Below the pieces are notes generated by a model, which was not told the DNA's origin, searched no databases, and worked only from the letters and a program-made list of their open reading frames with translations. A DNA stretch of 64,000 nt from assembly GCF_964355755.1 (NCBI RefSeq), contig NC_092679.1:1208201-1272200 (forward strand). The letters run 5' to 3'. Below, piece after piece: positions 47,004 through 53,200 of this stretch (positions are counted from its first letter, which is position 1; the number at the start of each line of letters is the position of its first letter). Made by a program: the position numbers and the translations under genes. The stretch is from Antedon mediterranea. Its lineage: Eukaryota > Animalia > Echinodermata.

Positions 47004-47249
47004 ATGGCAGCTTTAGACGAAGCTGATTTTGAACGGAGAAAACAGATAAGTGTTCGTGGTATAGCACAGGTTGAAGATGTGACTACGTTAAAAAAGTCAT
47101 TTAATCGTCATCTTCATTACTCGCTAGTAAAGGACCGAAACGTAGCCACCTCCAGGGATTTTTTCATAGCCCTCGCACACAGTGTGCGCGATCACTTGGT
47201 AGGCCGATGGATAAGAACTCAACAGCACTATTATGAAAAAGATCCAAAG
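47004..47249 (+). CDS. PYG: Glycogen phosphorylase alternative coding exon 1A (82 aa, canonical RRKQISVRG)
   Basis: Own ATG, open frame, ends DPK|gtaggc, phase 0. Confidence 0.93.
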
Positions 47250-50200
47250 GTAGGCATTTAAATTGATTAGGCTTATTATACGAGTCGTACAGGTAAAAAA
47301 CAGGTTTAAAAACTGATTTATTGAGTTAGAGAGGCTGTATAAACATACGGTTACATTTTGGGAATACAATACTGTCAATAATAGACTCACTGCAACAGTG
47401 CAATGATGATCAATTTATTTATTGTTTATTTATTGACATTTTAAAATGTAATTATCAAAGGGTATTATTATGCTACATAAGCGTTATCAAAAATATTGTG
47501 TGTAATGCATGATGGGAAGGAAATATATTATAATAATATTTAATAATAATATAACCTAGGCCTAATAAAAAAAGTTTTTATTAAATTCTGTGGTGCTGTT
47601 GCTTCTAATTCCTTCCAATCATGCATCAGGCACGCTATTTGCGATAAACCTTAATAAGCCTTTAATACAAGTAGTATTTAAGAAATGAATAGACTGCCCT
47701 CAATATTAAGAGGAGGTCCCTGAATTAAGTTTGGTGCCGTTTGTCTCATTAACATAAGAGGATGATGCGGTCTTGAGTCCCACACACACACATAACTTAC
47801 TCACCAAGAAGATGGCAGCTACAGATGAAGTAGACGTCCAGAAGCGAGGCCAGATTAGCGTGCGGCATATAGCTCAGTTGGATGATGTGGTAGCATTTAA
47901 AGACACATTTAATCGCCATCTTCATTGTTCGCTGGTAAAAGATCGGAATGTTGCGACATCTCGGGATTTCTTTATGGCCCTTGCTCATACAGTGCATGAT
48001 CATTTGGTTGGAAGATGGATTCGTACTCAACAACATTATTATGAACATGACCCTAAGGTTTGTTATTAATTTGTTGAACCTTATTGTTATAAAAATCATG
48101 TGTGTGAGAAGGTCTGAGATAATATGCCTTTAAATGCTTGTGTTAATCTCATAATATTGTGTAATTGTGTAAAATAAATATGTAAAACATTTTTGCAGAC
48201 ATTTTTTTTAATGAACATATTTGTTAAATAAATAAATAAATCCCTGATGATAAATCTTCTTTTGTAAATAAATTTGTCTTTCACATAATTACAAATTAAT
48301 AAAAATACAAATGAAGCAAATAAATTATACTATTATAGGCCTATAGTATTTTATTTTATTCAAACTCATTCAACAGCGGGAAACCCGCCCCTTACAGAAT
48401 GGAATAAACTTTAACATATAAATATATATAAATCTTAAAATCTAACAATACAAAATTATAGAATTTTACTAATTTTATTACAAAAACAATTATAACGGTC
48501 AAAAAAGAGATCAATAGAATTATCTTTAACAACACAATTATTAAAAAGAAGACAAATACTTGAGATAAATCCATTCTTGGTAACATTAACACGACAATAC
48601 GGCACATAAAGAAGATTACATTTGGAATTACGAGTACGACAACCAACAGCTTACTTGTAATACACATTTTACACATACCCTGTCCTGTACTATTTATTGG
48701 TATCCACAGTTGTTGCTAAATAATTCACTCCGGCGTCTTGCTAAGAAACTTCTCACTAATGAAATCTGTCTGATAATATATGTATAGGTATGTAGCGTGG
48801 TAACTAATTAACCTATAGTTTGCCAACTACTACTGCTCGCATTGACTGTGTTGCCATTTGCTGTATCTTATTGCCGTTTATTTACGAATAGTTTTTGGAT
48901 GAAATTTCCAATCGAAATGCTAATTTCTTTCACAATATTCAATGAATGTTTCTGTTTTTGTTGTAAACTTCAATCAATTTGTTTTCAATTACCACAGGAC
49001 TTCTTGTTTACGAAAGAGCTTCAATGTCTATTTAGAACCCCACACATTTTTTGTCAAAACAAATAAATAAAATTGAAAAGAAATAAAATACTACAAAGAT
49101 AAAGGCTAACGTAAAATAAATATGTGTTAACCGGGCTAGTTAAAAACTTAATCTGTAATCTCAGTTTTAAATGATTTAATGCAGATTCATCGATTTTCTA
49201 TAGTTTAGTGTTTGAAGGTTGAACAGGATTGTTATTATTATTTCAACTTGATTAGGCAACAATGACAGTTATGGAATGCACTGTCATGTATAGGAAGTGG
49301 AATATTTCCAGGTACAGTAGATCCTATTTGCTTCCGTGCTTACTCACTGTCATTCCTGGATTCTACTACTACCTTTCGCAAAACATGGCCGACAAAGATG
49401 TCTTACTATGTCACGATCGGTTTAGCCGCCAAGTATCCTTGCAGGGTTTTGCGCAAGAAGAAGACATCGCGGAAATGAAATCCGCATTCAATCGGCATTT
49501 GCACTATTCACTAATGAAAGATCGTAACACCGGTACAAAGGTTGATTTCTATTTGGCGTTGGCGAATACAGTTTTTGACAGTATGGCCGGGCGTTGGATA
49601 CGTACCCTGCAACATTATGACGTACAAGACCCTAAGGTATTGCTGATGTTTCAATTACAATCTGTTTAATCATGGAGAAATAAGTTATCAAACAGGGCCG
49701 GAAGTTATGCCACAGATAGTTAATATCAATTTTTAATCATAAGATTTGTTAAATTTTGGTGAATAATTGTTATGTACCAAAATGTAATGTAACATAACAT
49801 AGAATACATCATAATATTATATAACTTGCTTAATGCTGTATTTTATCAATTGTGACTTATGCTATGCTTCAGTGCACAATGAATTGGTTTATAATTTTAC
49901 CAGGGACGTATAATTCCCTGTTTCTACATACATTATGACATATTACTTTTTACATTATTATTATTTTTACATTATTATTCGTAGTAAAATATCCATTGGC
50001 CATCGTTATGATACACATGATTGAACATCAGATAAAATGTGAACTTTATATAATGTCACTTGCATCAAAGGTTATAGTTCAAATAGTTTTGAGGTCATTC
50101 TGCATTGATTAAAATACCATAGTTGACTTTCTTGCAGTTACAATATAATGTACGATATGTGATGTACATATTATGTATTTCTTTACATTATATTCTTATC

Positions 50201-53200
50201 TATTTTGTTTAGATTCAGTATGTATACTTACTGTGTTATAAGTTCGAATGACATCCATAAATTATTAGTTAAATCAATTAAAATATGAAATATTTAACAA
50301 AATTAAGAGAGCAAAAAAAAGGGGGAGAGGGAGCGAGCTATTTAATATTTCGACAGATAACTGAAGAAGGTTTTAATAAGCTTTTTTTTGTATATTTAGA
50401 GTAAATAAAATTGAAAGTTTGTCAAATTTTTGACAAAAACTGATAAACAATAGGTTTCTTTGTTAAGTCGTTTACCATAGGTTGTAATAATCAATGGAGT
50501 GTTTAATTTTTTTTTCTATGTCCGTAGTGTAGATATAATTCTATTGTTATATTTTGTCAATCATTCAGTAATTTCAGCCTTGCCCTGTATTTTTTTATGT
50601 ACAATTAAAAAATGTAGGCCGACCAATAATATTATTTGCAAAAAATTATGGAGCCTTGAGGAGAGTACCTTGAAAATTGGACATTACATATAGGCCTATA
50701 AATACTGTACAATGCAATTACTGAAAAAGGATGCTGTTGCATAGGTCTACTAACAACATACAAAGCAATTACTGGAATAGGATGCTGCTACTAACGAAAG
50801 TATTCGAAAGTAAAGGTGATAACATATTGAACCCGCTCCGCCTCTTCCTTCCCATCAATCATTTTTAAGCGGAAGAAACAACTTCTATAAATATGGCTTG
50901 CCTTATCAAGTACCATGGTAGATGGGTTACTCTGTACATCCTAAATATACTCCTTTAAATTAATAAGTCGCCTCCGAATTTTAAAATGAGGATACAACCA
51001 AATGTTCGACCGAGATTCACTTTACCAGGGAGTCATGCTAATGTTATGTTTTGCTTTATTTCAGCGGATATATTACTTGTCTTTGGAGTACTATATTGGC
51101 CGGACACTGACCAACACTATGGTCAATCTGGGCATTCAAAGTGAGTGCGATGAAGCTATGTATCAGGTAATTATTCGTTATTATTAATTATGTTCAATTG
51201 TCAATTTATTTATAAATTATTATTATTATTATTAATAATATCTGTATGACGAATTATTATCAATATTTGAAAATAAAAAATGATTTAATTTAAGTATTGA
51301 CATAACAATAATCAACACATTTTGTTTGTCTGTTTACAGCTTGGTCTAAATATAGAAGAACTGGAAGAAATAGAAGAGGATGCAGGGCTTGGCAACGGCG
51401 GCCTAGGAAGGTTGGCAGGTAATTCATTATTGTTCAGTTCTTTTTAATACAAATGTTGTTTTGCGTTTCCATGCTATTTGTGATGAAAGCGAATCCATTG
51501 ATTGAAATCTACTAATATTATTTATTTAAAGCTCTGTCTACACTATCAAACTAGTTTGACAAAAAAGTATGATGTGCCCAAATATGGTAGTGATATGCTT
51601 AAATATGGTAGTGATATGACATCATTGTTTTGTTGTCACAAGTTTGATAGTGTAGAGAGAGCTTAATAATTCTTAAGCATGTTTGACATTTATTCATATC
51701 TTTTGCTGGACATAATTGTAGCATGTTTTCTCGACTCCATGGCAACGCTTGGTCTTGCTGCATATGGGTATGGCATCCGATATGATTATGGAATCTTCAG
51801 TCAAAAAATAAAAGATGGCAGACAAGTAAGAATATTAATTTTAAGGCTTTAATTAGAATAGATTATCTGTACCACAACTATTGAAATCAGAACTTGTTTA
51901 TTACTTACAAACAATATAAATTCCATTTAGCATTTAGAATACGTTTGTTTCTTTTCACATTCACAATATAAATGGGTACTAGAATGCACAGATTATCACT
52001 AATAAAGCTCTGTCTACACTATCAAACTAGTTTGACAAAAAAAGTGTGATGTGCCCAAATATGGTAGTGATATGACATCATCATGTCCATATTTGGCCAC
52101 ATTATATTTGTAACATAAAATTTGATAGTGTAGACAGATCACTAACAGCTTATAGTGTGCAATATTTCTTATTTCTTATTTCAAGTTCTTTTTTGCTTCT
52201 TGCTACAGAGATGACTTAGATGACTAAAATCTTACTCTCATTATGATTCTTTACCATATTAAAATCTGTACAATACTGTGCTTACAACATTCTCTTTAGT
52301 TTTTCATATATACAGTATTTCCATATGTTGTTTCACTTTATTTCAAAAGATTGAGGAACCAGATGATTGGCTGAGATATGGCAACCCTTGGGAGAAAGCT
52401 CGTCCTGAATACATGATTCCCATCAATTTCTATGGAAGAATTGAACATAAAGATGGGAAAGTAAAATGGGTTGACACCAAGGTAAGTTTAATGAGCCTAC
52501 CTTGATATATAAACACATGTTGACAAGTCCACTCTAATGCATTATCCTATCGTGGTCTCAGTTTAGCCCCACCCTGGCGCATTATCCTATCCTGGTCTCG
52601 GTTAAGACCCACCCTGATGCATTATCCTATCCTGGTCTCAGTTTAGCCCCCACCCTGGCGCATTATCCTATCCTGGTCTCAGTTTAGCCCCCACCCTGGG
52701 GCATTATCCTATCCTGGTCTTAGTTTAGCCCCCACCCTGGGGCATTATCCTATTAAATTACCTTTCAGAAAAACATTAAGAAAACAAATTATTAACACTT
52801 TTCTTGTGATTTTTAACAATATATTTTAGATTGTATAATAACCATCAAAATTACAAGTGAGAATCAATATCATAATAAGGCATTTGATGAAAATGCAGAC
52901 CGTCTTGAAATGATGTGACATGTTTCATTTTAGATTGTGTTTGCGATGCCTTATGACAGTCCAACACCTGGTTACCATAACAACACTGTAAACACCATGC
53001 GTCTATGGTCTGCTAAATCTCCTAACAGTTTCAATTTAAGTTTCTGTAAGTTTATACTTATTATTATAAGTTTACTCTTATTGTAACCTTACTGAATACA
53101 TTCAACTATCCTTTTATTATTTATCCTCATGTTTTACTTTTTAAGCAAAGTTGTTGCATACTCCAATTCCAAGGGTGTGGCATTCACAAGCATAATACTT

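What the first reader, a model, noticed from the sequence alone, without database searches (positions are those of the whole stretch)
47004..51166. One glycogen phosphorylase gene with three tandem, mutually exclusive regulatory first exons
Seen: three homologous exons (47004-47249, 47812-48057, 49385-49636), each with its own ATG, no stops or frameshifts, each ending in DPK at a phase-0 GT donor. Only one exon 2 (51065, [10 protein letters not shown]) and one catalytic body follow. 1A and 1B differ heavily in nucleotides while the protein is conserved, and their flanks show no obvious similarity, which suggests old duplicates under purifying selection. Established: this exon equals vertebrate PYG exon 1 and holds Ser14, the cap loop (D42/R43/N44/V45) and helix alpha2 (R69, Q71, Y75), i.e. 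the phospho-switch and part of the AMP site. Vertebrates obtain muscle, liver and brain isozymes from three genes. Inference: here promoter choice swaps the regulatory module on one catalytic core, a convergent isozyme system that could also form mixed dimers. I do not recall it being described.
Basis: partly seen in the sequence, partly recalled or inferred. Interest (0 to 1): 0.9.

Follow-up and report, generated by a model that had tools for sequence, protein, structure and literature searches.

The report
Phosphorylase with three swappable regulatory heads
A feather star's glycogen phosphorylase gene carries three duplicated first exons, matched one for one in a second feather-star family, and the third has lost AMP-binding residues that other animals keep, so one gene likely makes differently regulated enzymes where vertebrates use three genes.

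Summary
Confirmed and extended. The window is the glycogen phosphorylase gene of the crinoid Antedon mediterranea. Three homologous first exons (A, B, C; ATG to a phase-0 GT donor) precede one 19-exon body. They are old duplicates under purifying selection (omega 0.035-0.055). RefSeq already models A and B isoforms in Antedon and all three on one identical body in Anneissia japonica (another family); the exons pair by type across species. One spliced contig shows the A-to-exon-2 junction; B and C junctions were not seen directly. No other animal showed an exon-1 swap among 263 full-length proteins. New point: exon C in both species keeps Ser14, Arg43 and Arg69 but replaces the AMP-site residues Val45, Gln71 and Tyr75 (T, L/V, D), states absent from 244 other exon-1 peptides. 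It is predicted to give an AMP-blind, phosphorylation-gated isoform; this is untested. The architecture is a known kind (variable first exons, as in UGT1); its use on the regulatory module of phosphorylase was not found in my paper searches. Separate promoters, tissue specificity and mixed dimers remain inferred.

The parts
47004..47249 (+). First exon A (coding part), canonical type: Ser14 motif, cap loop and helix alpha2 all intact
   Evidence: RefSeq Antedon X1; spliced contig from 46974 joins exon 2; 77 of 82 aa identical to Anneissia X2
47812..48057 (+). First exon B (coding part): AMP-site residues intact, changes around Ser14 (G17H in both species; K11G in Antedon, Q12E in Anneissia)
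   Evidence: RefSeq Antedon X2; 68 of 82 aa identical to Anneissia X3; pair support 96/95
49385..49636 (+). First exon C (coding part): keeps S14, D42, R43, N44, R69; carries V40M, V45T, A46G, R49V, R60F, Q71L, Y75D, R16Q
   Evidence: 64 of 84 aa identical to Anneissia X1; pair support 100/100; no Antedon RefSeq isoform among 5 of 5 cluster members
51065..51166 (+). Exon 2, first shared exon; phase-0 acceptor
   Evidence: junction with exon A in a spliced contig
51340..58178 (+). Exons 3-20, the shared body with stop codon; keeps the body-side AMP/G6P residues R193, Y196, D227, R242, R309, R310
   Evidence: GT-AG exon chain reproducing P0001 exactly; residue map
46581..47003 (+). Short gap between the 3' end of the upstream GDSL-lipase (phospholipase B1-like) gene and exon A; likely holds promoter A
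   Evidence: Upstream ORF ends near 46009; run X1 contigs cover 45786-46580 and start again at 46974; promoter itself inferred
47250..47811 (+). Spacer A-B, likely promoter and 5' UTR of B; holds an in-frame AG ending at 47760 of middling acceptor score
   Evidence: score 4.0, against median 4.7 for true acceptors and 95th percentile 5.7 for decoys
48058..49384 (+). Spacer B-C, likely promoter and 5' UTR of C; best AG within 300 nt of the ATG scores 3.2; a genomic repeat lies near 48350-48650

Best explanation
This crinoid glycogen phosphorylase gene has three tandem-duplicated coding first exons under purifying selection, each likely driven by its own promoter and spliced to one shared exon 2, likely giving three isozymes that differ only in the N-terminal regulatory module, with C predicted to be insensitive to AMP. 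Steps: (1) exon 1 was duplicated twice before Antedonidae and Comatulidae split (orthology of B and of C shown; crinoid-only origin inferred). (2) Each copy has its own ATG and phase-0 donor, so a transcript starting at one copy splices over the downstream ones (A junction shown; B and C rest on RefSeq models; promoters inferred). (3) A is the ancestral enzyme, activated by Ser14 phosphorylation or AMP (inferred from full residue conservation). B keeps the AMP site and alters residues next to Ser14, likely tuning kinase or phosphatase handling. (4) C keeps Ser14 and its partners R43 and R69 and the helix core, but loses the nucleoside side of the AMP/G6P site (V40, V45, Q71, Y75) and R60; it is predicted to ignore energy-charge signals and be switched mainly by phosphorylation, a liver-like role (inferred, about 0.55-0.6). 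Mixed dimers would form only where two promoters are active in one cell (untested).
For: Exact anatomy. Omega 0.035-0.055, and omega=1 rejected with 2dlnL about 103. Neutral simulation at 0.5 substitutions per site keeps ATG plus ORF in 1.3% of 5000 runs, with at most 54% aa identity. Anneissia X1/X2/X3 and Antedon X1/X2 differ only within the first 79 residues. Orthologous identities are 77/82, 68/82 and 64/84, body 712/771. B and C pairs have starred support. Spliced A-exon 2-exon 3 contig with GT..AG joints in run X1. T45, L/V71, D75 and Q16 occur in both C exons and in 0 of 244 other exon-1 peptides, while D42, R43 and R69 (244 of 244) are kept. Y75 and D42 are listed as AMP-site residues and R60 as indole site (PMC9081730, passages); Y75 stacks on the AMP nucleotide (PMC9331883, passage).
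Against: B and C junctions were not seen: in run X1 the contigs over B and C run unspliced through the donors (one run, contigs drop rare forms). No Antedon C isoform is among the 5 of 5 cluster members. RefSeq isoforms are automatic models whose read support I could not see, and the Anneissia genomic order was not seen. No transcription start or tissue data. An in-frame AG at 47760 leaves A-to-B tandem splicing formally open. The body keeps the phosphate subsite (R242, R309, R310, Y196), so some AMP binding may remain. C also loses K9, R10 and R16, so its Ser14 may no longer be a phosphorylase-kinase site (role of R16 recalled, not found). Crinoid monophyly of all three exons is only 96/66 and the A pair is not one group in the best tree.
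Confidence: 0.66

Rival explanations
1. The exons are real alternative first exons kept mainly for their promoters (expression in different tissues or stages); the amino-acid differences are tolerated drift and the enzymes behave alike.
For: B and C evolve faster than A and the body (83% and 76% against 94% and 92%). B has few changes at known allosteric residues.
Against: C's changes fall on near-invariant AMP-site positions, most are the same residue in both species (T45, G46, V49, F60, D75), and the structural and phospho-contact residues are spared. Y75D is not conservative.
Confidence: 0.15
2. Exon C, perhaps B, is now silent or nearly so in Antedon: a recently retired exon, or one used only in Anneissia.
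For: No Antedon RefSeq C isoform; no B or C junction in run X1.
Against: Intact ATG, frame and donor (scores 5.8 and 4.9, within the 2.5-12.2 range of true donors). 76% identity to the Anneissia orthologue, and the Antedon C terminal branch (0.2) is shorter than Anneissia's (0.62). Antedon B is a RefSeq isoform.
Confidence: 0.07
3. Isoform C is a constitutively active, or an inactive or dominant-negative, subunit rather than a phosphorylation-gated enzyme, because the basic residues around Ser14 and several dimer-interface residues changed together.
For: K9F, R10S/H, R16Q, V21E, R49V and R60F in both species. Helix 2 and the cap loop form the dimer interface (PMC9331883, passage).
Against: S14, R at -3, R43 and R69 are all kept in both species, which fits continued use of the phospho-switch. 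The catalytic body is shared with A.
Confidence: 0.1
4. One promoter with a shared non-coding leader exon that splices to alternative acceptors before A, B or C, so choice is by splicing and not by promoter.
For: Candidate AGs at 46954 (3.9), 47760 (4.0) and 49208 (3.2) score inside the range of true acceptors.
Against: They also lie within the decoy range (95th percentile 5.7). Only about 400 nt separate the upstream gene's 3' contig from the A contig start. N-terminal tandem-exon substitutions are described as arising from alternative promoters (PMC8373072, passages).
Confidence: 0.06
5. Assembly artefact or uncollapsed haplotypes.
For: A repeat near 48376-48624 breaks the contigs between B and C.
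Against: The exons are only 51-71% identical in nucleotides. DNA contigs span A and B (44000-48376) and C to exon 2 (48624-51205) (possibly the assembly's own sample). Orthologues of all three exist in another family.
Confidence: 0.005

Closest known systems
Multiple variable first exon genes: UGT1, GCNT2, clustered protocadherins (PMC1885805, abstract and Background read)
   Same: Tandem homologous first exons, each spliced to a common set of constant exons; lineage-specific duplication.
   Different: There the variable exon encodes the substrate or recognition domain and arrays reach a dozen or more. Here three 82-84 codon exons swap only the phospho/allosteric head of a central metabolic enzyme, in an invertebrate.
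Tandem exon duplication-derived N-terminal substitutions (PMC8373072, passages read: 39 human N-terminal events)
   Same: Homologous N-termini from duplicated 5' coding exons; old and conserved.
   Different: No PYG gene is named in that paper's main text (0 hits; supplement not read). By its strict definition these are alternative-promoter events, not mutually exclusive splicing.
Vertebrate PYGM / PYGL / PYGB isozymes (PMC9081730, passages read)
   Same: Phosphorylases that differ in reliance on Ser14 phosphorylation versus AMP; same exon-1 boundary at K80 (123 of 144 fragment hits read through at DPK into V/G).
   Different: Three genes that differ along their whole length. The muscle and brain sequences seen here keep V45, Q71 and Y75 (the liver form too, recalled). 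Crinoid isoforms differ in exon 1 only, and C loses these residues outright.
PKM1/PKM2 and PRKG1 alpha/beta (recalled, not tested here)
   Same: A duplicated alternative exon changes the allosteric regulation of one catalytic core.
   Different: PKM uses an internal exon pair; PRKG1 has two N-termini in a kinase. Neither concerns phosphorylase.

Membership tests
Variable first exon / N-terminal tandem exon substitution genes | Two or more homologous coding first exons in tandem | tested here: met
Variable first exon / N-terminal tandem exon substitution genes | One shared set of constant exons, with frame-compatible donors | tested here: met
   phase 0 at all three donors and at exon 2; one body
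Variable first exon / N-terminal tandem exon substitution genes | Each variable exon is spliced to the constant region in mRNA | tested here: inconclusive
   A shown; B modelled in both species and C in Anneissia only; no direct B or C junction
Variable first exon / N-terminal tandem exon substitution genes | Each variable exon has its own promoter | not testable with these tools
   No CAGE or raw stranded reads; acceptor scan was ambiguous
Variable first exon / N-terminal tandem exon substitution genes | Variable exons are under purifying selection and conserved across species | tested here: met
Strict mutually exclusive (internal) exon splicing | Internal exons flanked by constitutive exons on both sides | tested here: not met
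   Each exon begins the protein with its own ATG and no upstream coding exon exists
Animal glycogen phosphorylase | Full-length phosphorylase (PF00343) closest to muscle, brain and liver enzymes | tested here: met
   (E = 0 to brain and muscle structures)
Animal glycogen phosphorylase | Ser14 phospho-switch with R43 and R69 | tested here: met
   Residues present in all six crinoid exons; phosphorylation itself not tested
AMP-activated animal phosphorylase | Exon-1 AMP-site residues V45, Q71, Y75 (isoforms A and B) | tested here: met
AMP-activated animal phosphorylase | Exon-1 AMP-site residues V45, Q71, Y75 (isoform C) | tested here: not met
   T45, L/V71, D75 in both species; 0 of 244 other peptides have these states
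AMP-activated animal phosphorylase | Measured AMP activation and G6P inhibition | not testable with these tools
   Needs enzyme assays

The most novel reading that the evidence does not exclude
Crinoids rebuilt the muscle/liver-type phosphorylase isozyme system inside one gene: promoter choice plugs in an AMP-sensing or an AMP-blind regulatory head, exon C being a natural knockout of the AMP site. It is one case of a wider, apparently undescribed habit of invertebrate phosphorylase genes, which diversify by duplicating different single exons (1 in crinoids; 5 in amphioxus, myriapods and an ostracod; 6 in a nemertean, a priapulid and an annelid; 8 in Lingula; 10 in Owenia; 18 in oysters).
Probability: 0.45. 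Interest if true: 0.8.

Novelty: new variant of a known kind. Interest (0 to 1): 0.64.

Why it matters
Glycogen phosphorylase is the textbook enzyme for control by phosphorylation and allostery. Three natural isoforms with an identical catalytic body and different 82-84 residue heads are a clean experiment on how much regulation lives in exon 1, and isoform C removes AMP-site residues that are nearly invariant in animals while keeping the phospho-switch. It is also a likely case of convergence: exon duplication in crinoids against whole-gene duplication in vertebrates. The recurrent duplicated exons in other invertebrate phosphorylase genes give further test cases.

Tried and rejected
No whole genome is held for this window, so I could not check for a second phosphorylase gene; only one Antedon cluster appeared among the 120 listed hits of each. 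No RNA holder was listed on record; X1 is a guessed RNA run. In X1, contigs over B (47855-48124) and C (49388-49693) cross the donors unspliced, as do contigs in plain intron, so they show neither use nor disuse. The wide lay was swamped by an intronic repeat near 51527-52100. Searches for further C-type exons found none: no hit, best 59% identity among 150 listed, no further crinoid; weak evidence, since such isoforms hide inside clusters. AlphaFold of the Anneissia C isoform on a 48-row alignment gave mean pLDDT 62 with residues 1-171 under 50, so it says nothing on the head; no fold search was run. No complex prediction was run: a pass would follow from likeness to solved dimers. The acceptor matrix from 19 introns separates true from decoy sites poorly. 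P0002 (tick) has a second, frameshifted exon-1-like piece that looks like a gene-model error; not followed. No divergence date was obtained (listing only). The brain phosphorylase structure paper was not held. Passages in PMC9876800 and PMC10858836 gave nothing on Arg16 or isozyme heterodimers. Earlier scan notes held nothing.
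Full report
Observation. The three exons lie exactly where stated: 47004-47249, 47812-48057 and 49385-49636, each ATG to DPK followed by GT at phase 0, with exon 2 at 51065. 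tblastn finds three copies and no more in the window, and nucleotide similarity between them is confined to the exons apart from short AT-rich matches. A GT-AG chain of 20 exons from exon A to 58178 translates exactly to RefSeq XP_071962151.1 of Antedon mediterranea, so there is one catalytic body.

Selection. A and B are 71% identical in nucleotides and 77% in protein, with synonymous sites saturated (pS about 0.77, pN about 0.15); C is about 50% identical in protein to either. Codon models on the last 70 shared codons give omega 0.035-0.055, and fixing omega at 1 costs about 52 log-likelihood units. In a neutral simulation at 0.5 substitutions per site, 1.3% of 5000 copies kept ATG and frame and none passed 54% protein identity. 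These figures cover the whole history since duplication, not recent times alone.

Second species. The cluster of the Antedon protein has 5 members, all read: Antedon X1 and X2, and Anneissia japonica X1, X2 and X3. Within each species they differ only in the first 79 residues. Antedon X1 and X2 are exons A and B. Anneissia X2, X3 and X1 match A (77 of 82), B (68 of 82) and C (64 of 84); the bodies match at 712 of 771. In a tree of 25 exon-1 peptides the B pair (96/95) and the C pair (100/100) have starred support, the A pair is unresolved, and all six crinoid rows against the 19 others get 96/66, which is neither shown nor rejected. All six share F51 and S38, each seen in 8 of 244 other peptides, which fits a crinoid origin. 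The species belong to Antedonidae and Comatulidae, so the duplications predate that split. These isoforms are automatic models; I saw neither their read support nor the Anneissia DNA. No Antedon C isoform is among the five.

Transcript evidence. No run was on record as RNA. In X1, a guessed RNA run, one 1126-nt contig starts at 46974 and joins exon A to exon 2 and exon 2 to exon 3 at GT..AG joints, with a loose end that matches the start of exon 4. Contigs over B and C cross their donors unspliced, as do other low-depth intronic contigs, so this run does not show B or C splicing. DNA contigs in X2 span 44000-48376 and 48624-51205; they may come from the assembly's own sample.

Exclusivity. Donors of A, B and C score 3.5, 5.8 and 4.9 against 2.5-12.2 for the gene's own donors. 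Candidate acceptors upstream of the ATGs score at most 5.9 (A), 4.0 (B, in frame) and 3.2 (C), against a median 4.7 for true and a 95th percentile 5.7 for decoy sites, so sequence alone does not exclude a shared leader or a tandem A-B splice. The upstream gene's 3' contig ends at 46580, about 400 nt before the A contig. Separate promoters are the simplest reading and the usual origin of such N-terminal swaps (PMC8373072, passages), but they are inferred.

What the heads differ in. Numbering follows the muscle enzyme without Met (P0120). A is canonical. B keeps V45, Q71 and Y75 and changes residues near Ser14 (G17H in both species). C in both species keeps S14, D42, R43, N44, W67, R69 and the helix core, but has M40, T45, G46, V49, F60, L/V71, D75 and Q16. 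Among 244 distinct non-crinoid exon-1 peptides drawn from 429 stored proteins, position 71 is Q in 244, 75 is Y in 237 and never D, 45 is V or I in 244, 16 is R or K in 243 and never Q, and D42, R43 and R69 are invariant. The AMP site is given as D42 of one subunit with Y75, D227, R242, R309 and R310 of the other, and R60 as indole site (PMC9081730, passages). Y75 stacks on the AMP nucleotide, and helix 2 and the cap loop form the dimer interface (PMC9331883, passage). A docking passage places N44, V45, W67, Q71 and Y75 at the allosteric site (PMC13661043). The shared body keeps R193, Y196, D227, R242, R309 and R310. I infer that C has lost the nucleoside side of the AMP/G6P site while keeping the phospho-switch, and so is switched mainly by phosphorylation, as the liver enzyme is said to be. 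The loss of K9, R10 and R16 could instead change the kinase or loosen the off state (roles recalled). An AlphaFold model was too poor in the head to help.

Distribution. Among 263 full-length proteins with exon 1, of 474 stored, 281 pairs share a near-identical body stretch; 6 differ by 4 or more residues in exon 1, of which 4 are the same-species crinoid pairs and 2 are pairs of different decapod species. Sea stars, urchins, a brittle star, sea cucumbers, hemichordates and amphioxus showed one exon-1 type per species. This rests on annotated proteins and would miss unannotated exons. Other invertebrates show swaps of other single exon-sized segments: residues about 178-221 in amphioxus isoforms, with two copies in gene models of two myriapods and an ostracod; about 221-257 in Lineus and Priapulus, two copies in Dimorphilus; 287-332 in Lingula; 369-415 in Owenia; about 730-771 in oysters. 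The amphioxus pair toggles Y/F196, a residue of the AMP site that also differs between brain and muscle forms. These were seen at protein level only.

Known and new. The architecture is that of variable-first-exon genes such as UGT1, GCNT2 and protocadherins (PMC1885805, abstract and Background) and of N-terminal tandem exon substitutions. Full-text searches found no description for phosphorylase: with crinoid, 0 papers; with alternative first exon, 3 unrelated titles; nothing relevant among the 20 listed in each, which held 557, 4246 and 141 papers and were seen as listings only. Subscription journals and the supplements of crinoid genome papers were not seen and may mention it. The isoforms are in RefSeq as automatic annotation.

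Verdict. A real, conserved array of three alternative first exons in crinoid glycogen phosphorylase (about 0.9), most likely making differently regulated isozymes, with C predicted to be AMP-blind (about 0.55-0.6). New variant of a known kind; interest 0.64.

Noticed in passing
P0045/P0137, P0158/P0047, P0141/P0134 (Branchiostoma); P0165, P0166, P0171: Two versions of the segment at residues about 177-221 (exon 5 here), which holds R193 and Y/F196 of the AMP site; the amphioxus isoforms toggle Y and F at 196. Two tandem copies appear in gene models of two myriapods and an ostracod.
   Followed up: partly
P0257/P0204 (Lineus), P0259/P0228 (Priapulus), P0164 (Dimorphilus), P0044/P0155 (Lingula), P0210/P0471 (Owenia), P0239/P0240 and relatives (oysters): Further exon-sized swaps in phosphorylase isoforms, matching exons 6, 8, 10 and 18 of this gene: recurrent exon duplication in invertebrate phosphorylase genes.
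   Followed up: partly
P0045/P0136 (Branchiostoma), P0245/P0241 (oyster): An optional 13-14 residue insert at the same place, after residue about 334, in amphioxus and oyster isoforms, with unrelated sequence.
   Followed up: no
P0208, P0209: Two proteins (one from Octopus) have Thr instead of Ser at the Ser14 position.
   Followed up: no
window 376-756, 2767-3024, 8105-8437: Tandem IFI6/IFI27-like genes (PF06140 on two of them); the middle copy appears to be in a shifted frame.
   Followed up: no
window 11928-16105: Rhodanese plus dual-specificity phosphatase gene (MAP kinase phosphatase-like).
   Followed up: no
window 20475-21714: F420 oxidoreductase-domain gene (NOXRED1-like, name recalled).
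   Followed up: no
window 24727-25860 (-): 378-codon open frame of a multi-pass membrane protein without a Pfam hit at 0.001; resembles a gustatory-receptor-like gene (recalled, untested).
   Followed up: no
window 28721-34438 and about 37500-46009: A multi-SRCR membrane protein gene, then a GDSL-lipase repeat (phospholipase B1-like) gene ending about 1 kb before exon A.
   Followed up: partly
window 51527-52100, 52540-52750, about 58900-64000: A very high-copy inverted-repeat element in introns 3 and 4, a short tandem repeat in intron 5, and a mixed satellite array downstream of the gene.
   Followed up: no
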